This document shows positions 1 to 35,107 of a DNA stretch of 35,803 nucleotides, piece after piece. Within the stretch, counting starts at the first letter, position 1. Each line of letters opens with the position of its first letter. The stretch is taken from IMG/VR virus record IMGVR_UViG_2548876858_000018. One strand, 5' to 3'. A program made the translations under genes and the position numbers. Source of the DNA: a virus (Duplodnaviria; Heunggongvirae; Uroviricota; Caudoviricetes). The notes under the pieces were generated by a model, which was given only the letters and a program-made list of their open reading frames with translations, was not told where the DNA came from and did not search any database.

Positions 1-1032
1 TTATTTACCTTGAGAATCTATAGGTAAGATCCCCTTAAAAATCAAAAAATCTGGATCGTAAGCATAATTGGCTAAAAAATCACCGTTATTGGCAGTTGCT
101 TGGAAAATAATTGTATTTTGATCAATTAGCATGTACAGAGATATCAATATATCTCGTAATCCACGAAGCATTTCTTTTATTTCTTTTTCATCTGAAAATG
201 ATGTTTCTATTCCTAAGTTTGATATCGGATCAAAAATCTCAAATTTGTTGACTTCTCTTTCATAATTAACTCCTAGTTCTCTACACAGCCATACCACTTG
301 TGCTTCAATGTTCTCTAAATTAGATATGTTAACTTGTTTTGGGTAAAGCTGATTGTATCTTGCTATTTCATGCCCAATGCTGTTATATATATTTTCTAAT
401 TTTTCAAGGAATGATTTATCAACTTCATTATTATATCCAGTAGAGATTGAGGATTTTGTGAATATTTTTTTATATAATGAGTAGGTATGATCTACAGATA
501 GTTTAATTGTGTCTTTTTCGAAAGTTGTATTATCTCGACGAGAAAGGGTAAATGACGGTAACGTTTTAAACATATCCGAATAATTCTTGAGGTGAGCGTA
601 GTAAGCATCACTGCGGTTTTTCTCAGTCACTAGATCTATCTGTTGCTGTGTTTTCCTAATTTGATTTTCCGTTTGTATTGTTCTGTGAATGTTAGCGACT
701 ATAGCTACAAAGGGTATCGAAAGGGAAAGAAGAGCGATAGGCAACTTGCTTATTTCAATGAAGTTTGAAAATCCATCAGCATCAAATTGAGGAGAGTGTC
801 CCATCCATGAGAATATACCGAAGTATAAGGATGAGATAATAGGTATTCTGATGGATTGTTTAAATAAATTTTGTTTTGTTAGCCTTTCCTCAGTCATTTC
901 GAAATAATTATTATTTTTGTTTTTTGTGTATTCAATAAATAGATATATTAAATAAAAAATTATAAGGAAAGTAGATATTTCTGGTTTTTTTATATAGCTA
1001 ATTACGAATTCTTGAGTCATGGTGTGGTCCAT
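1..1032 (-). CDS. Hypothetical membrane-anchored protein (about 3 predicted N-terminal TM helices, about 220-aa soluble C-terminal domain); AT-rich cargo gene next to int
   Basis: 343-aa ORF with stop at 1-3; start overlaps int 3' end by 16 bp; hydrophobic stretches ISTFLIIFYLIYLFIEY, IPIISSLYFGIFSWMGH, LPIALLSLSIPFVAIVANI; strongly AT-rich versus phage backbone; family not recognised. Confidence 0.55.
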   Translation of the reverse strand: MDHTMTQEFVISYIKKPEISTFLIIFYLIYLFIEYTKNKNNNYFEMTEERLTKQNLFKQSIRIPIISSLYFGIFSWMGHSPQFDADGFSNFIEISKLPIALLSLSIPFVAIVANIHRTIQTENQIRKTQQQIDLVTEKNRSDAYYAHLKNYSDMFKTLPSFTLSRRDNTTFEKDTIKLSVDHTYSLYKKIFTKSSISTGYNNEVDKSFLEKLENIYNSIGHEIARYNQLYPKQVNISNLENIEAQVVWLCRELGVNYEREVNKFEIFDPISNLGIETSFSDEKEIKEMLRGLRDILISLYMLIDQNTIIFQATANNGDFLANYAYDPDFLIFKGILPIDSQGK

Positions 1033-2045
1033 TTTAATCTATATAAAGGGTTTTTTGATACTGCATCCTCTAAATGATCAGGTGCAAAATGTGCATAAAC
1101 CATAGTCATTTTTATATCCGAGTGACCAAGGATGTCGCGCAACACGAGTATGTTTCCGCCGTTCATCATAAAATGGCTAGCGAATGTATGGCGCAGTACG
1201 TGGGTGCATTGGCCCTCCGGTAGATCTATACCTGCCCGTTTTACTGCTCGTTCAAAGGCTTTTCTACATGGTGAGAATAACTTCCCTCTGTTCTTTGGGA
1301 GTTCGTCATACAGCTCCTGTGATATGGGTACTGTTCTGTTTTTCTTGCCTTTGGTCTTTGTATAAGTAATTCGGTATTTCGATATTTGGTGGCCCTGTAG
1401 GTTTTCTGCTTCACTCCATCGCGCACCAGTAGCCAGGCATATTTTTGCAATCATTAGTAGGCTGGTGTTTTGAGATTCGGCGCAGGCATTAAGCAGGCGT
1501 TTGATTTCGTCCGTGGAAAGAAAAGCCAATTCACCTTCAGCAATTTTGAAGGTTGGAAGCCCTGCCAGTGGGTTTGGTGCGGACCAGTGCCCTAGTTTTT
1601 TCAATGTACCGAACACCGATGACAGATTGCGTTGTTCAAGGTTTACCGTGCGGGGCTTAACCGGTGACATGAGCACGCCATCTTCGTTTTTGATCTCACC
1701 TTTTAATCTGGCTTCCCGGTACTTTGTGAAATCACCTGCTGTCAATTCAGAAGCGATGGGATCGCCAAGCCCATTACAAATGATTTTTAGCTTAGCCATT
1801 AATCGCTTAGGGTCAGCGAGTGTCTGACCGTACAGGGAATACCATTGCTCAATCACTTCTGACAGTGGTCGCCGATCTTCCTTTTCTCCCAGCCAAGGTT
1901 TCTTGTTTACCTCATCCATGGTGAAATTCTCAAACGCAATGGCTTCGCCTTTCGTCGCAAATTGTTTGCGTACGCGTTTGCCATCTCTCCCGTTTGGGTA
2001 GCATTCACATAACCACTTTCCGTTCGGCTGTTTTCTGATCGTCAT
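1017..2045 (-). CDS. int: Tyrosine-type site-specific integrase, P2/186 family
   Basis: 342 aa; N-terminal resemblance to P2 Int (R/KxxxxGxxxxxxxPxGRxGKRxRxxFxxKxEAxAFExxT) and C-terminal catalytic region HxLRHTFASHF...VYAHF. Confidence 0.9.
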   Translation of the reverse strand: MTIRKQPNGKWLCECYPNGRDGKRVRKQFATKGEAIAFENFTMDEVNKKPWLGEKEDRRPLSEVIEQWYSLYGQTLADPKRLMAKLKIICNGLGDPIASELTAGDFTKYREARLKGEIKNEDGVLMSPVKPRTVNLEQRNLSSVFGTLKKLGHWSAPNPLAGLPTFKIAEGELAFLSTDEIKRLLNACAESQNTSLLMIAKICLATGARWSEAENLQGHQISKYRITYTKTKGKKNRTVPISQELYDELPKNRGKLFSPCRKAFERAVKRAGIDLPEGQCTHVLRHTFASHFMMNGGNILVLRDILGHSDIKMTMVYAHFAPDHLEDAVSKNPLYRLKWTTP

Positions 2046-2047
2046 GA

Positions 2048-2686
2048 TTAGATGCTCTTAATCACTTTTACCACACGCCCTACAACGTCTACGTCATCAA
2101 CTGCACATTCAAAGGTTGTTTCTTCCTGATGAACAACAAGCTTATTTCCGGGAATTCGAGCTACTTTTACGATGCTTTTCACTCCATCAATATCAACAAG
2201 CCAGGAGCCATTACTGATCTGTTTTACAGATACATCAACAATAAAACTTTCTGTTGTCGTTTGTATGAATAGATAGTTTGACGAGTCGCCCTCAACCAAC
2301 CTGCTATCTAATAAAATTTCGTCATATGATTGAAGTTCACCATTTCTTAACTCTGTGTATTTGATACTGGGAGCTACGATTTTAGAAAGTGGTCTAATCG
2401 TGACGTCATTATCATTTTTGAGAATGTTTACGTCACTGTTATCTGCATACATATCACCCTGTCCGGTTGCCAACCAAAGAAGCGAGATCCCGGTTTCTAG
2501 TGCACATTGAATTACCCATTCTGCTGGAAAACTATCTCTTAAGTATCTGTTTGCCATGGTGCTTTTTGATACTTTTAAGTGTTCGCAGAGTTGTTGGCGT
2601 GAGCTGAAATTGTAGGCTTTTATCAGCCTGTTGATGGCATCACGACCCCCACTATCGTTTCCACCCTTGATTAGACTCATAATCAA
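2048..2686 (-). CDS. cI: 186-type CI immunity repressor
   Basis: 212 aa; divergent from early operon; motifs CALETG..L.WL.TG.G, LWLVDI.G..SI, PG.KL...FEC..DD..GRVV match 186 CI pattern as I recall it. Confidence 0.75.
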   Translation of the reverse strand: MIMSLIKGGNDSGGRDAINRLIKAYNFSSRQQLCEHLKVSKSTMANRYLRDSFPAEWVIQCALETGISLLWLATGQGDMYADNSDVNILKNDNDVTIRPLSKIVAPSIKYTELRNGELQSYDEILLDSRLVEGDSSNYLFIQTTTESFIVDVSVKQISNGSWLVDIDGVKSIVKVARIPGNKLVVHQEETTFECAVDDVDVVGRVVKVIKSI

Positions 2687-3594: not shown

Positions 3595-3891
3595 ATGCTG
3601 ACGAAAGAACCATCATTTGCATCGCTGCTGGTAAAACAAAGTCCGGCAATGCACTACGGTCACGGCTGGATCATGGGTGAGGATGGTAAACGCTGGCATC
3701 CATGTCATTCACAAGATGAATTGCTGTCTGAATTGACCACGAGGAAACGGAGAAAGTCAAAATGTATGCAGCGGAAAGTGAAGTGGTTTATCAGTTTCGT
3801 TACAGAGGGGAGAGTTATTCAGTACCTGAAGATGATTTGCTGTGTTGTTATCCGTCGTTGTCTGGCGATGGCAGTTACTTTTTCACGCTAA
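3595..3891 (+). CDS. Hypothetical early protein (Fil-like position); 3' portion overlaps next ORF and may be non-coding
   Basis: ORF in frame from ATG 3595; C-terminal third is Cys-rich and overlaps 3762-3986 in another frame. Confidence 0.35.
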   Translation: MLTKEPSFASLLVKQSPAMHYGHGWIMGEDGKRWHPCHSQDELLSELTTRKRRKSKCMQRKVKWFISFVTEGRVIQYLKMICCVVIRRCLAMAVTFSR

Positions 3892-5732: not shown

Positions 5733-8143
5733 GCCATGCCGATATGAACAACTGCTGCGGCTTTAACGAGGCTGCCGCAGCGTTCTCATGGAACAGCCCG
5801 AAAAAGGCCATTAACCCTTATCTGGACCCGGCGGAAGTTGCGCCGGTTTCTGCGCTTTCAAACCTGATCACTCTGTACGCTGCCGATAACGAGCAGGAAC
5901 AGCTGCGCCGCGAGGCACTGAGTGATCAGGTCTGGGAGCGTTATTTCTTTAATGAATCCCGTGATCCTGTCCAACGCGAAATGGAGCAGGATAAGCTCAT
6001 TAGCCGGGCAAAGCTGGCGCATGAGCAGCAGCGTTTTAATCCAGACATGGTCATTCTGGCGGACGTTAACGCCCAGCCTTCCCATATCAGCAAGCCGCTG
6101 ATGCAACGTATTGAATACTTCAGCAGCCTGGGCAGGCCAAAGGCTTATTCCCGCTATTTGCGTGAGACGATTAAGCCATGTCTGGAACGACTGGAGCATG
6201 TACGCGACTGTCAGCTATCCACTTCTTTTCGCTTTATGGCAAGCCATGAAGGGCTGGACGGCCTGCTGATCCTGCCTGAAATGAGTCAGGATCAGGTGAA
6301 GCGCCTGTCTACCCTTGTCGCCGCGCATATGAGCATGTGCCTTGATGCAGCTTGTGGTGATTTGTATGCCACCGATGACATTAAGCCAGAAGAAATCCGC
6401 AAAACATGGGAAAAGGTGGCAGCGGAAACCCTGCGTCTGGATGTTATCCCGCCTGCGTTTGAGCAACTCCGTCGGAAAAGAAACCGCCGTAAACCCGTGC
6501 CTTATGAACTCATTCCGGGTTCGCTGGCGCGTATGTTATGCGCCGACTGGTGGTATCGGAAATTATGGAAGATGCGTTGCGAATGGCGGGAAGAGCAGTT
6601 GCGTGCTGTTTGCCTGGTCAGCAAAAAAGCATCTCCCTATGTCAGCTATGAAGCCGTGATGCATAAACGTGAGCAGCGCCGTAAGTCGCTGGAGTTTTTC
6701 CGTTCTCATGAACTGGTGAACGAAGACGGCGACACGCTGGATATGGAAGACGTGGTAAACGCCAGCAGCAGCAACCCTGCACATCGCCGCAATGAGATGA
6801 TGGCCTGTGTTAAAGGTCTGGAGCTTATCGCGGAAATGCGCGGTGACAGCGCCGTTTTCTACACCATCACCTGTCCGTCACGTTTCCATTCCACGCTAAA
6901 TAACGGCAGGCCCAACCCGACCTGGACAAATGCGACGGTAAGACAAAGCAGTGATTATCTGGTCGGTATGTTTGCTGCATTTCGTAAGGCGATGCACAAA
7001 GCCGGATTACGCTGGTATGGCGTGCGGGTGGCTGAGCCGCATCATGACGGTACAGTTCACTGGCACCTGTTGTGTTTTATGCGCAAAAAAGATCGCCGCG
7101 CCATTACTGCTTTGTTGCGTAAGTTTGCCATTCGTGAAGACCGCGAGGAGCTGGGTAATAACACGGAACCACGCTTTAAGTCTGAGCTGATAAACCCGCG
7201 CAAAGGTACGCCAACAAGCTACATCGCGAAATACATCAGTAAGAACATTGACGGGCGTGGTCTGGCTGGCGAGATCAGCAAGGAAACGGGTAAATCCCTG
7301 CGTGATAACGCTGAATACGTTAATGCCTGGGCGTCTCTGCATCGTGTTCAGCAATTCCGCTTCTTTGGCATTCCGGGGCGTCAGGCTTACCGTGAACTGC
7401 GATTGCTGGCTGGTCAGGCGGCAAGGCAACAGGGGGGCAAAAAAGCAAGTGCGCCGGTACTGGATAACCCGCGCCTTGATGCCATCCTGGCCGCTGCTGA
7501 TGCTGGTTGTTTTGCCACCTACATCATGAAGCAGGGCGGCGTACTGGTTCCCCGCAAATATCACCTCATCAGAACCGCTTATGAAATCAACGAAGAGCCG
7601 ACCGCCTATGGCGATCACGGTATTCGTATTTATGGCATCTGGTCACCCATTGCAGAGGGCAAGATCTGCACTCATGCGGTGAAGTGGAAAATGGTTCGTA
7701 AGGCCGTTGACATTCAGGAGGCGGCAGCCGACCAGGGCGCTTGCGCCCCTTGGACTCGTGGCAATAACTGTCCCCTTGCTGAAAATTTGAACCAACAAGG
7801 GAAAGACAAATCAGCTTATGGGGATACCAGAACGGACATTACCCGCATGGATGACAAGGAGTTGCACGATTACCTGCACAGTATGAGCAAAAAAGAGCGC
7901 CGGGAACTGGCTGCAAGGTTACGCCTGGTGAAACCGAAACGGCGTAAAGACTACAAACAGCGAATTACAGACCATCAGCGACAGCAGCTCGTCTATGAGC
8001 TGAAGTCCAGAGGATTTGATGGCAGCGAGAAAGAGGTCGGTTTACTCCTTCGCGGCGGCAGTATTCCGTCAGGAGCAGGCCTGCGTATCTTCTATCGGAA
8101 CCAGCGTTTGCAGGAAGATGATAAGTGGCGGGATCTGTATTAA
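5729..8143 (+). CDS. A: Replication initiation endonuclease (P2 gpA family, rolling-circle initiator)
   Basis: 804 aa; HxH-type motif GTVHWHLL; position and size as P2/186 gene A; start overlaps dam stop. Confidence 0.9.
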
Positions 8144-9052: not shown

Positions 9053-10726
9053 ATGGAAAAATATCAAGATGAGGAATATGTAGATGATTTAACTGAGCGT
9101 GTTTTTCTCATTAAGCAACAACTGGAAGCGGGAAAACTAAAAATAGCTCATCATCTTGTAGAAGGTTTTATTGAAAGTTTTAAAAGAATAAGGCTGCGAC
9201 AGGATGGTAAAGTTGACCCTTCTACTGTTGATGGCAGAATAAGGGCTATGGGAGCAGCGGTTAATCACTTTTTAGAAAGAGAAGATATAAAAAACAAATA
9301 CTCTATTCAGGACTTGCAAAGTTCTTACTTTAATATTCTTTTTAGTAATTTTGGCGAGTTGTTTTATCTGATGAAAAAAACTAATGCAACGCCACATAAA
9401 GCATCAAGTTTTTTTTCTCAACAAGAAGAATATGTTAAGCAAATAGAAGATATTTTTCCTGAGTTATATAATCAGGTAATAGAGTTTTGGCAGGTAACAT
9501 CCGATATTGGTGTAATACATTTGCAGGATGGTTCTCAGTTTAAAGCTAATTTTTCTGGTGACTTATTTCCTGCATTTGATGAGAATGCTGTCTCTATTGC
9601 AGGGTTGTATGTTGATACTATTTCACTTCCATGTCCTATATTAAGAGTCGGTCGTCTCTATGAAAAGTCAGATAAGGCTGAGTTTACAAGGATACTTCTG
9701 AAGCATGTCCTAACATGTATGACATATAAAGAAGTAGCGCTTGAAGATATAGAGCCAGCAATAGTATTAATTTTGCCGGATAGAAGAGATTTTGAAACTG
9801 AGAGCAAAAAAAATTTGATGAGTTTTTGTGAGCCTTATGCTCTGACTCATGCGCAATATCTCTATGATCGACGGTTCGAAAGCTACGATGAATTTCGAGA
9901 TTTTAGTTATTCGATGAATGATATTGATGCTGTTCTTAAAAATATTAAGAGAGCAGATAGACTTATTTTTGATACAGCATGGGGGCTAAATCCAAAAACT
10001 CAATTAGAAAAACTACTATCTGATAAAAAAAGAATATCACGTAATGTTGTTGGTGATCATGCTGGAATGGAGGTTTTCCTTTCCTGCATTGGAAGAATGC
10101 CGCAAGCCTATTCAGCAAAATGTAATGCACAAGAACTTGGTAGTACTCCATATATAAATGCAGACACATCTTGGCTCTATTATACTTGGCTTATTGAGTA
10201 CGAATCTCTTAATTTTGATGTCAATGATATTGAACTAAAAAATTTGCATATGGTTCATGCGTTATCTGCTGGTATGCAAGATGGTTTTTCATGGTTAGGA
10301 AATGTACCGGTCAATAAAATAATTGAGTTGAGACGTAACAAATTGATGGAGGATGTAAGATCCATCTTATCAAATGGTGTTGACTCTTTAATCAATTCTT
10401 CGGCAGAGAGCTTTTCGAGGACAACGCAAAAAGTAATTGATAATGTAGACCGGGCTTTTATTGAACATCAAAGGATTCTTGCAAAAGCCCAAAAAGAGAA
10501 ATTGAGAATTTACGGACTAGATGTCCTACCATGTATCGCAAATGGTGCTATAGCAATTGCTGGAGCGCTGACTGGCAATACTACTTTAACGGCGTTAAGT
10601 GCAGGCCTTGGAGTAATAGGTATTCCGAGTATTAGTGATATCAAATCTAAATTTAAGCAGAGGCAAGAGAAGCTTGATGCCTATCAACGTTCTGTTACAG
10701 GTATACTCTTTAGCCATAAATCTTAA
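9053..10726 (+). CDS. Hypothetical 557-aa protein, AT-rich cargo gene in the cos-to-portal variable slot; C-terminal glycine-rich hydrophobic segment
   Basis: Long ORF with RBS GGAG; markedly AT-rich; flanked by terminators; no Walker A or nuclease motif recognised. Confidence 0.6.
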   Translation: MEKYQDEEYVDDLTERVFLIKQQLEAGKLKIAHHLVEGFIESFKRIRLRQDGKVDPSTVDGRIRAMGAAVNHFLEREDIKNKYSIQDLQSSYFNILFSNFGELFYLMKKTNATPHKASSFFSQQEEYVKQIEDIFPELYNQVIEFWQVTSDIGVIHLQDGSQFKANFSGDLFPAFDENAVSIAGLYVDTISLPCPILRVGRLYEKSDKAEFTRILLKHVLTCMTYKEVALEDIEPAIVLILPDRRDFETESKKNLMSFCEPYALTHAQYLYDRRFESYDEFRDFSYSMNDIDAVLKNIKRADRLIFDTAWGLNPKTQLEKLLSDKKRISRNVVGDHAGMEVFLSCIGRMPQAYSAKCNAQELGSTPYINADTSWLYYTWLIEYESLNFDVNDIELKNLHMVHALSAGMQDGFSWLGNVPVNKIIELRRNKLMEDVRSILSNGVDSLINSSAESFSRTTQKVIDNVDRAFIEHQRILAKAQKEKLRIYGLDVLPCIANGAIAIAGALTGNTTLTALSAGLGVIGIPSISDIKSKFKQRQEKLDAYQRSVTGILFSHKS

Positions 10727-23554: not shown

Positions 23555-24156
23555 TGGATAAAGCTATATTAAATAAGGAACTCATCGCCACAAAGGCGGG
23601 AGATATTACCGTTTATAATTATGATGGTGAAACGCGGGAATATATTTCTACATCAACTGAATATCTTGCTGTTGGCGTCGGTATCCCGGCATGTTCTTGT
23701 TTAGATGCGCCAGTTACACATAAAGCTGGTTATGCTATCTGCCGCTCAGCAGATTTTAACTCATGGGAATATGTGCCAGACCATCGCGGTGAAATTGTCT
23801 ATAACACCGAAACGGGAGATGCCAAAGAAATCACAGCACCAGGCGACTATCCCGAAAAAACAACCACTCTCGCACCGTTAACGCCATACGATAAATGGGA
23901 TGGTGAGAAATGGGTGACCGATACTGAGGCACAGCATAGCGCCGCAGTAGAAGCGGCAGAAGCACAGCGCCAGTCGCTGATTGATGCTGCAATGGCTTCT
24001 ATCAGTCTGATTCAACTGAAATTACAGGCCGGGCGGAAGCTGACGCAGACAGAAAACACCCGACTTAACGCCGTGCTGGATTACATTGACGCGGTGACGG
24101 CAACAGATACCAGCACCGCGCCGGATGTCATCTGGCCTGAACTGCCGGAGGCGTAG
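23554..24156 (+). CDS. G: Tail fibre assembly chaperone G (P2 gpG family)
   Basis: 200 aa; N-terminal region resembles tail fibre assembly proteins. Confidence 0.8.
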   Translation: MDKAILNKELIATKAGDITVYNYDGETREYISTSTEYLAVGVGIPACSCLDAPVTHKAGYAICRSADFNSWEYVPDHRGEIVYNTETGDAKEITAPGDYPEKTTTLAPLTPYDKWDGEKWVTDTEAQHSAAVEAAEAQRQSLIDAAMASISLIQLKLQAGRKLTQTENTRLNAVLDYIDAVTATDTSTAPDVIWPELPEA

Positions 24157-24601
24157 GCCATTCAATATCTGGAGCACTGGAGGTATCAACCAGTTCCAGT
24201 GCGTCCAGATAATCCAGCCACAAATTATATTGCGCCAGTTCCTCACCTTTCAGACGACCAATAGCCGCTTTACCGGGCCATTGTTTACTGTTCATGTATT
24301 CGTTGACCTGGTTAATCAATTGCTGCTTTTTCAATTCGGCTGCGGCAATCTGTTCCTCATGTGTTGGTGGTGGAATATCTGCCCATGATGGCATTCCATC
24401 TTCACCAACGCACCTGTATTTTCCTTCTGGTGCTGGTTTAAGTGCAAATTCTTCGAAAACAGAATATTTAACGGGTTTTGCATCTGCTGGAAAAGAATTA
24501 GATTTAATATATTCTTGTTTCAAATGCTCAGGGTAAAATGCATTATTTATAGAGCTGTAGTATATTATGCTCGACATTTTATAATCCTTATGGAAGCTCA
24601 A
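24128..24601 (-). CDS. Alternative tail fibre assembly chaperone (inverted cassette)
   Basis: Convergent with G; C-terminal ...DYLDA...TDTS.APD..WPE/TPP conserved with G on + strand; start uncertain. Confidence 0.7.
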   Translation of the reverse strand: MSFHKDYKMSSIIYYSSINNAFYPEHLKQEYIKSNSFPADAKPVKYSVFEEFALKPAPEGKYRCVGEDGMPSWADIPPPTHEEQIAAAELKKQQLINQVNEYMNSKQWPGKAAIGRLKGEELAQYNLWLDYLDALELVDTSSAPDIEWPTPPAVQAR

Positions 24602-24990
24602 TATCCCAGTACCAGAAAATCACCTGTTTCAGTTGCGGCTGAAGTTGATATAGTCCTTGCAGCACAAATGGCCTTTAATTCTGTTTTTGTTAGTTCGGAC
24701 ACTCCCCAGGAATTAATACCTATTGGGCCTGTGGATACTGCGGTTTTTTCAGCAATAAATGCCATAAATGCAGAATTTGGAAAAGCAATAGGATAACTTC
24801 CTGTTGCAACACCAGTTTTACTATCAGAAGGTCCGATTCTTCCCCATTGGATAATAAAAGACTTCCCCTCTATAACAGGGATTTTTATCCAGCCAGATGA
24901 TGATAAAGAGCCACTAATCGCAGGCAATTTGGCCGCTTCTCCCAAACCAACGTTTATGAAAATGCAGAGATAACGGCTAACTGGCATCAT
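24598..24990 (-). CDS. Alternative tail fibre C-terminal cassette (silent in this orientation)
   Basis: Minus-strand ORF whose 5' end contains the crossover-site repeat; lacks own N-terminal constant region. Confidence 0.6.
   Translation of the reverse strand: MMPVSRYLCIFINVGLGEAAKLPAISGSLSSSGWIKIPVIEGKSFIIQWGRIGPSDSKTGVATGSYPIAFPNSAFMAFIAEKTAVSTGPIGINSWGVSELTKTELKAICAARTISTSAATETGDFLVLGY
24936..24950. repeat. Right inversion crossover site (inverted copy of 23043-23057)
   Basis: Reverse complement equals TTGGTTTGGGAGAAG; lies just upstream of invertase gene. Confidence 0.55.
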
Positions 24991-25011
24991 CCCCGGTTTT
25001 TATTCAGGGGA

Positions 25012-25247
25012 TTGATCATGCTTATTGGCTATGTACGCGTGTCAACAAATGACCAGAACACCGATTTGCAACGTAATGCACTGAACTGCGCGGGATGTGA
25101 GCGGATTTTTGAGGACAAAATCAGTGGCACTAAGTCCGACAGACCGGGGCTGAAAAAACTACTCAGGACACTATCGGCAGGAGACACGCTGGTTGTCTGG
25201 AAGCTGGACAGGTTGGGGCGCAGTATGCGGCATCTTGTTACGCTGAT
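25012..25247 (+). pseudogene. Gin/Pin/Cin-family serine DNA invertase, N-terminal fragment (gene interrupted by IS)
   Basis: MIMLIGYVRVSTNDQNTDLQRNAL... near-identical pattern to Mu Gin N-terminus; reading frame enters IS at 25248. Confidence 0.85.
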
Positions 25248-25255
25248 TGTAGTGG

Positions 25256-26505
<1,250 letters not shown>

Positions 26506-34119: not shown

Positions 34120-34143
34120 AACCTGCTACGGCAGGTTTTTATT
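34120..34143. terminator. Hairpin terminator after ogr (overlaps stop of convergent gene)
   Basis: AACCTGC-tacg-GCAGGTT followed by TTTTTATT. Confidence 0.5.
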
Positions 34144-34621
34144 CATCTGGGATCTCACCCGTTTCAAGAAAATGTATAAAGCCAGGCTCATCTATGATGA
34201 TTGTGCCTTTCATCCTGGCTGCCGATACTTTTGATGGGCCTGCATTGTAACCGCAACAGAGCATCTGAAGGCTTTGGGTTATAGAGGTTCTTACCGTTAA
34301 TCCTTGTTCATTCGCCTTATCAACCAATCTTTCTTTATCTGCTTTCTTAAATCCGGTGAAACACACATCGAATGTATTTTTTTTCGGACCAGACTGCTTA
34401 GTGAGATGTGAGTAGCTTTCGGGGAGGAATGACGCGCATTCCTGAATGGCTTGTTCTGGTGAATCGTACTGTTTAAGAATGCGGTCTTTTCGGAAGGTTT
34501 TTATTCGATCGGTGTTCTTACAAATGCCCTGTATATGATTTTCGCTATAACTGATGCTCTGTATAGAGTGAACAGCGATACGACCATTTGCATTGATGTA
34601 AACAAAGTGAAGTTCTTCCAT
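34139..34621 (-). CDS. Hypothetical protein with N-terminal WYL-like domain and C-terminal BRCT-like domain; cargo gene between ogr and attR
   Basis: 160 aa; N-terminal FVYINANGRIAVHSIQ...GIC...DRIKTFRKDRI fits WYL-domain pattern ending RTFRxDRI; C-terminal CFTGF...GLTV...AGPSKV.AA...G..IIDE..F..FL fits BRCT pattern as in LigA; lower GC than phage backbone. Confidence 0.6.
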   Translation of the reverse strand: MEELHFVYINANGRIAVHSIQSISYSENHIQGICKNTDRIKTFRKDRILKQYDSPEQAIQECASFLPESYSHLTKQSGPKKNTFDVCFTGFKKADKERLVDKANEQGLTVRTSITQSLQMLCCGYNAGPSKVSAARMKGTIIIDEPGFIHFLETGEIPDE

Positions 34622-34734: not shown

Positions 34735-34744
34735 TTGATTTATT

Positions 34745-35107
34745 TGGTGGAGCTGGCGGGAGTTGAACCCGCGTCCGAAATTCCTACATCCTCGGTACTA
34801 CATGCTTAGTCAGTCTTTACATTCGCTTGCCAGCTGCGGACGGACACGCCACTAACAAACTAGCCTGATTAAGTTTTAACGCTTCAACCCCAGGCAGGGC
34901 TTCCACGCGATCTCTTTTGGGTTTGACCTCTCTTGATCCCCGTCCTAAGAGCGGAGGCTAGGGAGAGAGGGCTCTAAGCAGGTTATTAAGCTGCTAAAGC
35001 GTAGTTTTCGTCGTTTGCGACTATTTTTTGCGGCTTTTTACGAGGCCAACCGCCCCTCGGCATGCACCTTGGGTTTCGCAAATCCCGTCGAATCCAGAAT
35101 CAGCCCC
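34745..35107 (-). ncRNA. ssrA: tmRNA (SsrA)
   Basis: Reverse complement begins GGGGCTGATTCTGGATTCGACGGG and ends ...GGTTCAACTCCCGCCAGCTCCACCA; contains tag-reading-frame region. Confidence 0.92.

What the first reader, a model, noticed from the sequence alone, without database searches (positions are those of the whole stretch)
1..1032. AT-rich membrane-anchored 343-aa protein between int and the (unseen) attL: second candidate cargo/defence gene
Seen: the ORF is co-oriented with int and its start overlaps the int stop by 16 bp, so it lies inside the prophage at the int-proximal end. GC content is far lower than in int. About three N-terminal hydrophobic helices precede a roughly 220-aa cytoplasmic domain rich in Asn/Lys/Tyr; no motif recognised. 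Inference: a horizontally acquired moron, plausibly a membrane-associated defence or superinfection-exclusion factor. The window starts at its stop codon, so partner genes further left cannot be excluded.
Basis: partly seen in the sequence, partly recalled or inferred. Interest (0 to 1): 0.6.

Follow-up and report, generated by a model that had tools for sequence, protein, structure and literature searches.

The report
Uncharacterised membrane cargo gene beside prophage integrase
The last gene of this 186-like prophage is a real but unstudied inner-membrane protein, and it occupies an exchangeable slot between the integrase gene and the attachment site where related phages carry known anti-phage genes, so it is a good but unproven candidate for a new phage-defence family.

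Summary
The ORF is real. It spans 1..1032 on the minus strand (343 aa), though the start is probably the ATG at 1020 (339 aa), which overlaps the int stop as ATGA. GC is 31%, against 46% for int and 51% for the window.

In two complete E. coli genomes with the identical prophage, attL (a 46-bp copy of the ssrA 3' end) lies 114 bp beyond the stop. The gene is therefore inside the prophage, and it has no partner gene.

It belongs to a large family with no name in any source: 1,226 clusters at 50% identity, mostly Enterobacterales and Pseudomonas, PHROG 17460. The family has no Pfam, NCBIfam or PADLOC match and no structural neighbour.

Predicted architecture:
- three transmembrane helices (the first is absent in some members);
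- a highly conserved hairpin and juxtamembrane motif (IHRTIQTxxQI…KNxxDxYYxHxK);
- a faster-evolving cytoplasmic domain of about 190 aa.

I classified 72 phages with near-identical integrases. The space between the int stop and a conserved attP arm is a cassette slot:
- this family: 19
- an unrelated ~400-aa family: 23
- empty: 14
- GapS1 (a validated defence gene): 5
- dCTP-deaminase-like, SMEK and other genes: the rest

Best reading: a single-gene anti-phage protein made in lysogens and acting at the inner membrane. The function is inferred, not shown.

The parts
1..1032 (-). Cargo gene. The longest ORF is 343 aa. The probable CDS is 1..1020 (339 aa, start ATG at 1020-1018), with the stop codon at 1-3.
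   Evidence: ORF list. RefSeq annotates WP_148119614.1 from the second ATG. Chance test. dN/dS is far below 1. Sixty-nine homologous clusters by word-indexed search and 1,226 by exhaustive search. PHROG 17460, E=1.5e-55.
925..978 (-). TM1 (residues 19-36). Poorly conserved and absent from some family members.
   Evidence: Hydropathy. AlphaFold2 helix 17-40. Alignments.
583..900 (-). Conserved core (residues 45-150). It comprises the cytoplasmic LTxQxLF motif, TM2 (59-77; 802-858), a periplasmic loop GFxNFIEISKLP (78-96; 745-801), TM3 (97-115; 688-744) and the juxtamembrane IHRTIQTxxQI...KNxxDxYYxHxK motif (116-149; 586-687).
   Evidence: Invariant residues L51, Q54, F91, P98, H116 and Q120 across 68 diverse members. 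Block conservation 0.5-0.7 here against 0.2-0.3 in the C-terminal part. dN/dS 0.02-0.05. DNA homology to the divergent E. coli alleles H4 and H5 begins at window position 685.
4..582 (-). Faster-evolving cytoplasmic alpha/beta domain (residues 151-343).
   Evidence: AlphaFold2 pLDDT mostly 70-95, with helices and two beta-hairpins. K/R bias after TM3 is +1.8 across the family. dN/dS 0.10-0.19. BLASTP to the P0025-type allele stops at residue 227. No fold match.
1017..2045 (-). Tyrosine integrase (int). Its stop codon TGA (1017-1019) overlaps the cargo start as ATGA.
   Evidence: Pfam Int_N and Phage_integrase. Sequence.
2048..2686 (-). 186-type CI repressor, first gene of the leftward cI-int-cargo gene string.
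   Evidence: Pfam Phage_CI_repr and Phage_CI_C. RefSeq annotation.
34744..34789 (+). attR core, 46 bp. It is the 3' end of the intact ssrA gene (tmRNA 34745..35107, minus strand). An identical copy forms attL 114 bp to the left of window position 1 (L001 7841-7886).
   Evidence: ARAGORN. Exact pattern matches. Alignment.

Best explanation
The gene is a single-gene cargo cassette of an ssrA-integrating, 186-like (P2-family) prophage. It is inserted exactly between the int stop codon and the conserved attP arm.

It abuts int with an ATGA overlap and has no detectable promoter of its own. It is therefore most likely made from the leftward lysogenic cI-int transcript, that is, in lysogens.

The product is an inner-membrane protein. 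The N-terminus faces the periplasm. There are three transmembrane helices, with a short conserved periplasmic loop between TM2 and TM3. About 225 residues after TM3 lie in the cytoplasm.

The proposed function is protection of the lysogen against other phages, acting at the inner membrane. In this model the faster-evolving cytoplasmic domain recognises an infection cue. The strongly conserved TM2-TM3 hairpin and juxtamembrane HRTxQT/KNxxD module is the executing part, for example by oligomerising and breaching or blocking the membrane, which would be abortive-infection-like.

Shown: gene reality, position inside the prophage, the cassette slot and its alternative occupants, family size, conservation pattern.

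Inferred: expression, topology, anti-phage function, division of labour between the domains.
For: Inside the prophage and alone:
- attL lies 114 bp beyond the stop in identical loci L001 and L002.

Exact cassette slot:
- A conserved arm starting TGGCGGCAnTTTGGCGGCAG directly follows either the int stop (empty loci) or the stop of whichever cargo is present.

Slot survey of 80 IMG/VR loci with at least 89% identical int, of which 72 could be classified:
- this family: 19
- an unrelated ~400-aa family: 23
- empty: 14
- GapS1: 5 (NCBIfam antiphage_GapS1, E=1e-133)
- dCTP-deaminase-like: 2
- SMEK_N/Aga_REase-like: 1
- a ~220-aa multi-TM protein: 2
- IS5 transposase: 1
- int reading frame unclear in my parsing: 3
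- only an 85-aa ORF called in a ~2-kb slot: 2

GapS1 also occupies the slot in a complete E. coli genome. GAPS1 is an experimentally described anti-phage system (bioRxiv 10.1101/2023.03.28.534373). The region between int and att of P2-like phages is reported as a minor defence hotspot (PMC13586616).

Family members also sit in other cargo positions:
- the P2 G/FI (Z/fun) slot in Morganella;
- the end of a lambdoid prophage in Proteus, near DUF4747 and PRTase-CE genes;
- chromosomal islands in Leclercia and Pseudomonas.

The cI-int-X-att order recurs in Klebsiella, E. fergusonii, Salmonella, Providencia, Serratia and Cronobacter, with gaps of 0-7 nt after int.

In phage 186, int lies downstream of cI on the leftward transcript and an int::lacZ fusion is used as its reporter (PMC7708051).

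Other support:
- Purifying selection, with a 3-4 times faster C-terminal domain.
- Topology from K/R bias over 68 members.
- Low GC.
Against: - There is no sequence or fold similarity to any known defence, exclusion or toxin protein.
- Guilt by location is circumstantial. The commonest slot occupant is itself uncharacterised.
- In known transmembrane-effector systems the membrane part is usually the least conserved. Here it is the most conserved, which may mean it binds a specific partner rather than forming a pore.
- dN/dS of the C-terminal domain is 0.1-0.2. That is faster evolution, but not demonstrable positive selection.
- Expression, topology and phenotype were not measured.
- The promoter scan is uninformative: 6 sites found against 9.5 expected.
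Confidence: 0.45

Rival explanations
1. Superinfection exclusion. The protein sits in the inner membrane of the lysogen and blocks DNA entry by incoming phages, without killing the cell. It could do so by occupying or altering the host inner-membrane factor, or the ejection-protein channel, that those phages use.
For: - It is membrane-anchored and belongs to the lysogeny module, probably co-expressed with the repressor.
- The most conserved parts are the TM hairpin and its short periplasmic loop. That would suit contact with a conserved membrane partner.
- From my own knowledge, known exclusion genes (P22 sieA, T4 imm, HK97 gp15, lactococcal sie2009, S. thermophilus ltp) are membrane proteins made in lysogens, and some sit next to int.
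Against: - Only about 19 residues plus a short N-tail are predicted to face the periplasm. Two thirds of the protein is cytoplasmic, which is unexplained by a simple entry block.
- The best PHROG match is a family of unknown function, and no PHROG hit carries an exclusion annotation.
- Family members also occur in chromosomal islands outside prophages.
Confidence: 0.2
2. A cargo with a function other than anti-phage. Examples are a membrane-tethered factor that changes host physiology or the envelope (lysogenic conversion), or a modulator of the prophage's own integration, excision or induction.
For: - It is tightly coupled to int in many 186-like prophages of seven or more genera.
- No defence signature is detectable.
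- From my own knowledge, O-antigen modification genes of P22 and Sf phages also lie between int and attP.
Against: - The slot is empty in 14 of 72 close relatives and holds unrelated genes in most others, so the gene is dispensable for integration and excision.
- Family members also occur away from any integrase.
- There is no glycosyltransferase, acyltransferase or DNA-binding domain.
- The recognisable alternative occupants are all defence-type genes.
Confidence: 0.2
3. A membrane toxin that stabilises the prophage (an addiction module) or acts in lysis timing, not in immunity.
For: - The conserved TM hairpin contains helix-breaking prolines and polar residues.
- GC is low and the gene is mobile.
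Against: - There is no partner or antitoxin gene: attL follows 114 bp after the stop.
- The phage has its own lysis genes elsewhere. The gene is on the lysogenic strand, not the late one.
Confidence: 0.05
4. Not a functional gene: a chance ORF or a decaying remnant.
For: AT-rich, with no annotated function anywhere.
Against: - P of about 9e-13 for an open frame of this length; the shuffle maximum was 139 codons.
- dN/dS is 0.02-0.19.
- 1,226 family clusters have a conserved architecture.
- The AlphaFold2 model is confident, mean pLDDT 83.
Confidence: 0.01

Closest known systems
GapS1 / GAPS1 (single-gene anti-phage protein first found in Vibrio GMT islands; NCBIfam NF047931)
   Same: It occupies exactly the same slot, between the int stop and the attP arm, in sister prophages with at least 89% identical integrases. 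Like this gene, it is a single-gene cargo.
   Different: There is no sequence similarity: the query has no NF047931 hit. GapS1 is about 510 aa and has no predicted transmembrane segment. Its anti-phage activity is experimentally described, whereas this gene is untested.
P2 lysogenic-conversion exclusion genes old, tin and Z/fun, and the P2/P4 defence hotspots (Rousset et al. 2022; PMC13586616)
   Same: Non-essential cargo of P2-family prophages in defined variable slots. A family member sits in the G/FI (Z/fun) slot in Morganella. The int-att region is reported as a minor P2 defence hotspot.
   Different: No homology to these genes: PADLOC gave no hit. The int-att slot is much less populated than the A-Q slot. 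That old, tin and fun are soluble or of different architecture is from my own knowledge.
Superinfection-exclusion membrane proteins (P22 SieA, T4 Imm, HK97 gp15, lactococcal Sie2009, S. thermophilus Ltp)
   Same: A small-genome prophage gene within or next to the lysogeny module. The product is membrane-anchored and presumably made in lysogens.
   Different: This protein is much larger, with two thirds predicted to be cytoplasmic. No sequence relation was detected: the only significant PHROG match is family 17460, of unknown function. The properties of the named proteins are from my own knowledge and were not tested here.
Transmembrane effectors of abortive-infection systems (RexB, CBASS/retron 2TM and SLATT effectors, Kiwa KwaA)
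   Same: Two or three transmembrane helices combined with a cytoplasmic part. The proposed mode of action is at the membrane.
   Different: Only sub-threshold, compositional hits were found: SLATT_6 E=0.53 and 2TM effector E=0.26, both on the unconserved TM1. KwaA and 2TM models hit single family members out of 68, at E of 4e-5 to 0.009. Here the membrane module is the best-conserved part, and the protein works without a partner gene.
PHROG 17460 (phage protein family of unknown function)
   Same: Clear membership: E=1.5e-55 over residues 19-304.
   Different: The PHROG carries no functional information.

Membership tests
Cargo of the int-att variable (defence) slot of P2/186-like prophages | The gene lies between the integrase gene and the attachment site, inside the element. 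| tested here: met
   The attL core is at L001 7841-7886 and the ORF stop at 8001. The conserved attP arm directly follows the stop.
Cargo of the int-att variable (defence) slot of P2/186-like prophages | The slot varies between closely related elements and includes known defence genes. | tested here: met
   Of 72 classifiable loci with at least 89% identical int: 19 this family, 23 a ~400-aa family, 14 empty, 5 GapS1, 2 dCTP-deaminase-like, 1 SMEK and others.
Anti-phage defence system (any) | Expression reduces phage infection. | not testable with these tools
   This needs plaque, efficiency-of-plating or survival assays.
Anti-phage defence system (any) | Homology to a catalogued defence protein. 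| tested here: not met
   PADLOC 2.0.0 gave nothing significant for the query and nothing consistent for 68 family members. NCBIfam 2026 gave nothing.
GapS1 | Match to NCBIfam NF047931 above the cut-off of 320 bits. | tested here: not met
   No hit for the query. The slot neighbour L033 scores 446 bits.
SLATT / 2TM effector domains | Significant profile match over the two-TM domain. | tested here: not met
   SLATT_6: E=0.53, 9.9 bits against a cut-off of 100. PADLOC 2TM: E=0.26. Both fall on the unconserved residues 7-53.
Superinfection-exclusion membrane proteins | Inner-membrane location. | tested here: inconclusive
   Three hydrophobic helices are predicted. There is no experimental localisation.
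Superinfection-exclusion membrane proteins | Blocks DNA entry without cell death. | not testable with these tools
   This needs DNA-injection and survival assays.
Superinfection-exclusion membrane proteins | Sequence relation to a known exclusion family. | tested here: not met
   The only significant PHROG hit is 17460, of unknown function. Pfam gave none.
PHROG 17460 | Significant match to the family profile over most of its length. | tested here: met
   E=1.5e-55, 190 bits. Residues 19-304 match profile positions 5-292 of 343.
O-antigen modification cargo (gtr/oac type) next to int-att | GtrA, glycosyltransferase or acyltransferase domains, in a polytopic membrane protein. | tested here: not met
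   No such Pfam domain in the query or in 68 relatives. Only three transmembrane helices.

The most novel reading that the evidence does not exclude
The gene is the founding example of a new, widespread, single-protein immunity family of Gammaproteobacteria (over 1,200 clusters at 50% identity). In this family a previously undescribed membrane module, the TM hairpin with the invariant HRTxQT/KNxxD juxtamembrane motif, is the effector. A diversifying cytoplasmic domain is the phage sensor. The family moves as a cassette between prophage hotspots.
Probability: 0.35. Interest if true: 0.65.

Novelty: new variant of a known kind. Interest (0 to 1): 0.5.

Why it matters
If the protein is anti-phage, it adds a common single-gene system that current defence catalogues miss (no PADLOC, NCBIfam or Pfam match). 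Individual 90%-identity family clusters were seen on several hundred Enterobacterales contigs, and the protein has no recognisable fold.

The work also defines, to the base pair, a cassette slot in ssrA-integrating 186-like prophages: from the int stop to the conserved attP arm. That slot could be mined for further candidates. The commonest occupant, a ~400-aa family, is also uncharacterised.

A conserved membrane module joined to a variable cytoplasmic domain is a testable design for how a single protein might couple sensing to membrane action.

Tried and rejected
Sequence and structure searches:
- Pfam, PADLOC, NCBIfam and PDB-sequence searches of the query and of family alignments found nothing. 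The only hits were compositional: DivIC E=0.15, designed coiled coils, and DctQ in 4 of 68 members.
- Sub-threshold SLATT and 2TM hits, and KwaA/2TM hits on single family members, were rejected. They fall on the unconserved TM1 or occur in single members only.

Searches for informative relatives:
- I looked for domain fusions in atypical or shorter family members. None carries a known domain.
- hhalign against the ~400-aa slot family shows it is unrelated (probability 0.2). Its RES-like look is only my recollection, and no PDB hit supports it.
- The genome-contig scan with the broad alignment failed because no conserved stretch was found. With the narrower alignment it gave only 6 loci.
- DNA-level prevalence searches in E. 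coli are insensitive for this AT-rich, divergent gene.
- Plasmids yielded only a mis-assembled record.

Literature:
- No paper mentions WP_148119614.
- Brenes & Laub 2025 is not held in the library, so I could not check whether that screen hit this family.

Promoter scan: not above chance.

Full report
**Observation**

The window opens with the stop codon of a 343-codon ORF on the minus strand (1..1032). It is co-oriented with a tyrosine integrase (1017..2045; Pfam Int_N and Phage_integrase) and a 186-type CI repressor (2048..2686).

The ORF cannot be a chance product. With this strand's composition, the probability of 343 stop-free codons is about 9e-13. The longest open frame in 2,000 shuffles was 139 codons. 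Against homologues of 70-81% identity, dN/dS is 0.02-0.05 in the N-terminal core and 0.10-0.19 in the C-terminal part.

GC is 0.309, against 0.458 for int and 0.510 for the whole window.

The longest ORF overlaps int by 16 bp. However, RefSeq starts the protein (WP_148119614.1, 'hypothetical protein', 339 aa) at the second ATG, at 1020. That methionine is nearly invariant among homologues. It makes an ATGA overlap with the int stop. I take 1..1020 as the likely CDS.

**Is it inside the prophage?**

Yes. Two complete E. coli chromosomes (13P477T and E371) carry the locus at 99.6% identity.

In both, a 46-bp exact copy of the ssrA 3' end (TTGGTGGAGC...CCTACAT) lies at L001 7841-7886. That is 114 bp beyond the ORF stop at 8001. 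Host genes (glaH onwards) follow it.

The same 46 bp form the end of the intact tmRNA gene at window 34744-34789. The prophage is thus about 34.9 kb. The ORF is its last gene before attL, and there is no space for a partner gene.

**The slot**

I fetched 80 IMG/VR loci whose integrase is 89-95% identical to this one. I then classified what follows int in each. Seventy-two loci could be classified:
- Empty: 14. The att core lies 131 bp after the int stop.
- This family: 19.
- An unrelated, soluble ~400-aa family: 23.
- GapS1: 5 (NCBIfam antiphage_GapS1, E=1e-133).
- A dCTP-deaminase-like protein with a C-terminal transmembrane segment: 2.
- A ~220-aa multi-TM protein: 2.
- A SMEK_N/Aga_REase-like protein: 1.
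- An IS5 transposase: 1.
- Int reading frame unclear in my parsing: 3.
- Only an 85-aa ORF called in a ~2-kb slot: 2.

These loci were not dereplicated, so the counts may include near-duplicates.

An alignment of five slot variants shows one conserved arm of about 114 bp, beginning TGGCGGCAnTTTGGCGGCAG. It starts directly after the stop codon of the cargo, or after the int stop when the slot is empty. The slot is therefore an exact cassette site.

GapS1 also fills it in a complete E. coli genome. GAPS1 is a described anti-phage system (bioRxiv 10.1101/2023.03.28.534373). A 2026 survey of thousands of P2-like prophages reports the region between integrase and att as a minor defence hotspot, holding 3% of P2 systems (PMC13586616).

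**The family**

A word-indexed search found 69 clusters. A second search with a broader profile found 154. All are named 'hypothetical' and none has a Pfam domain. They come from Escherichia, Salmonella, Klebsiella, Enterobacter, Citrobacter, Cronobacter, Serratia, Yersinia, Hafnia, Dickeya, Morganella, Proteus, Providencia and Pseudomonas.

An exhaustive profile search of 1.84 billion representatives found 1,226 clusters at 50% identity with E<=1e-3, and 264 with E<=1e-30. Individual 90%-identity clusters were seen on several hundred contigs.

The query matches PHROG 17460, of unknown function, at E=1.5e-55. It matches nothing in Pfam, NCBIfam (June 2026) or PADLOC. Sixty-eight diverse members give no consistent hit either, and shorter or atypical members carry no known domain.

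The order cI-int-X-att, with 0-7 nt between int and X, recurs in 186-like prophages of Klebsiella, E. fergusonii, Salmonella, Providencia, Serratia and Cronobacter. It also recurs in E. coli with a 43%-identical allele.

Members are found in other cargo positions too:
- between the tail-fibre assembly gene and the sheath gene of a P2-like prophage in Morganella, which is the Z/fun position;
- at the end of a lambdoid prophage in Proteus;
- in chromosomal islands of Leclercia and Pseudomonas.

None is on a plasmid.

**Anatomy**

AlphaFold2, run with a 34-sequence alignment, gives mean pLDDT 83 and pTM 0.60. It predicts helices at 17-40, 55-75 and 85-94, and a long helix at 96-138. A mixed alpha/beta domain follows.

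Conservation is concentrated in residues 45-150:
- an LTxQxLF motif;
- TM2;
- the loop GFxNFIEISKLP;
- TM3;
- IHRTIQTxxQI and KNxxDxYYxHxK.

L51, Q54, F91, P98, H116 and Q120 are invariant in 68 members. TM1 is weakly conserved and absent in some members.

Over the family, K+R minus D+E is +1.9 in the TM1-TM2 loop, -0.4 in the TM2-TM3 loop and +1.8 after TM3. By the positive-inside rule, the N-terminus is outside and the C-terminal domain is in the cytoplasm. This is an inference, not a measurement.

The C-terminal ~190 residues are homologous across the family but evolve 3-4 times faster. DNA homology to the divergent E. coli alleles begins at window position 685, at the end of TM3. BLASTP to those alleles fades after residue 227.

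**Mechanism**

No promoter-like site stands out: 6 were found against 9.5 expected. The gene abuts int. In phage 186, int is read from the leftward lysogenic transcript downstream of cI (PMC7708051).

I therefore infer that the protein is made in lysogens from the cI-int message, possibly by translational coupling. A host terminator hairpin (GCCCGC-TGAT-GCGGGC followed by a T-run, about L001 7716-7689, minus strand) lies about 300 nt downstream.

Four observations point the same way:
- the cassette slot is shared with defence-type genes;
- the gene moves between prophage hotspots and islands;
- GC is low;
- the product is membrane-anchored with a cytoplasmic domain.

The best-supported reading is a single-gene anti-phage protein acting at the inner membrane. 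I favour a sensor-inside, effector-in-membrane, abortive-infection-like model (confidence 0.45) over a pure DNA-entry block (0.2). Only about 20 residues face the periplasm, and the family is not confined to phages.

The unusually strong conservation of the membrane module is a caveat. It may mean the module contacts a specific partner rather than forming a pore.

A function other than defence (0.2) cannot be excluded. A role essential for integration is excluded, because the slot is empty or differently filled in close relatives.

**Novelty and verdict**

The kind of thing is known: a prophage cargo gene in a hotspot, and a candidate phage-exclusion protein. The int-att hotspot has itself been reported recently.

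The protein family, its conserved membrane module and its fold have no described relative in any library I could search. No paper found mentions the protein. One relevant screen, Brenes & Laub 2025, could not be read.

I rate it a new variant of a known kind. It is of moderate interest (0.5) and readily testable.

Noticed in passing
window 9053-10726 (+): A 557-aa ORF lies between the DinI-like gene and the portal gene, in the P2 'old' hotspot. It has no NCBIfam match and is annotated as hypothetical in RefSeq. It is another uncharacterised cargo candidate.
   Followed up: partly
window 24128-26469 (-): An IS3-family transposase, in two ORFs (26122-26469 and 25256-26002), and two small unknown ORFs (24128-24601 and 24598-24990) sit between the tail-fibre genes and the sheath gene, in the P2 Z/fun hotspot.
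   Followed up: partly
window 34139-34621 (-): A 160-aa ORF next to attR has a weak BRCT-like match, to the C-terminal parts of LigA and of a DEDDh exonuclease (E of 1e-5 to 1e-3). Its function was not examined.
   Followed up: no
L036 5789-6982 (and 22 other IMG/VR loci): The commonest occupant of the same int-att slot is an unrelated, soluble ~400-aa family. It has an invariant R..YS..G.PCLYLG.S...CW.EM motif that reminds me of RES-domain toxins. It has no Pfam, NCBIfam, PADLOC or PDB-sequence hit.
   Followed up: partly
L092 6044-6838; L075 6023-7015; L080 6035-6691: Three other alternative slot cargos: a dCTP-deaminase/dUTPase-like protein with a C-terminal transmembrane segment, a SMEK_N-domain protein (PADLOC Aga_REase-PNTD-like), and a ~220-aa multi-TM protein of unknown family.
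   Followed up: partly
NZ_CP019275.1 (L107); starts at window position 550: The record called plasmid p13P477T-2 (37.4 kb) is also listed in the phage collection. It begins inside this ORF and ends with frameshifted host genes (ssrA, smpB, ratA, bamE, recN, ppnK). It looks like a low-quality duplicate contig of the chromosomal prophage region, not a plasmid or an excised phage.
   Followed up: partly
window 3595-3750 (L001 11595-11750): RefSeq marks the Fil (filamentation) gene of this prophage as incomplete, lacking its C-terminus.
   Followed up: no
L005 7362-8555 and L106 8374-9615: In E. fergusonii, a P4-like satellite (integrase, Psu, Ogr/Delta) lies immediately beyond the family gene. 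In Cronobacter, an integrase-bearing island with a DUF3987 gene and a YagK/YfjJ-like gene does the same. These are tandem elements at one attachment site.
   Followed up: no
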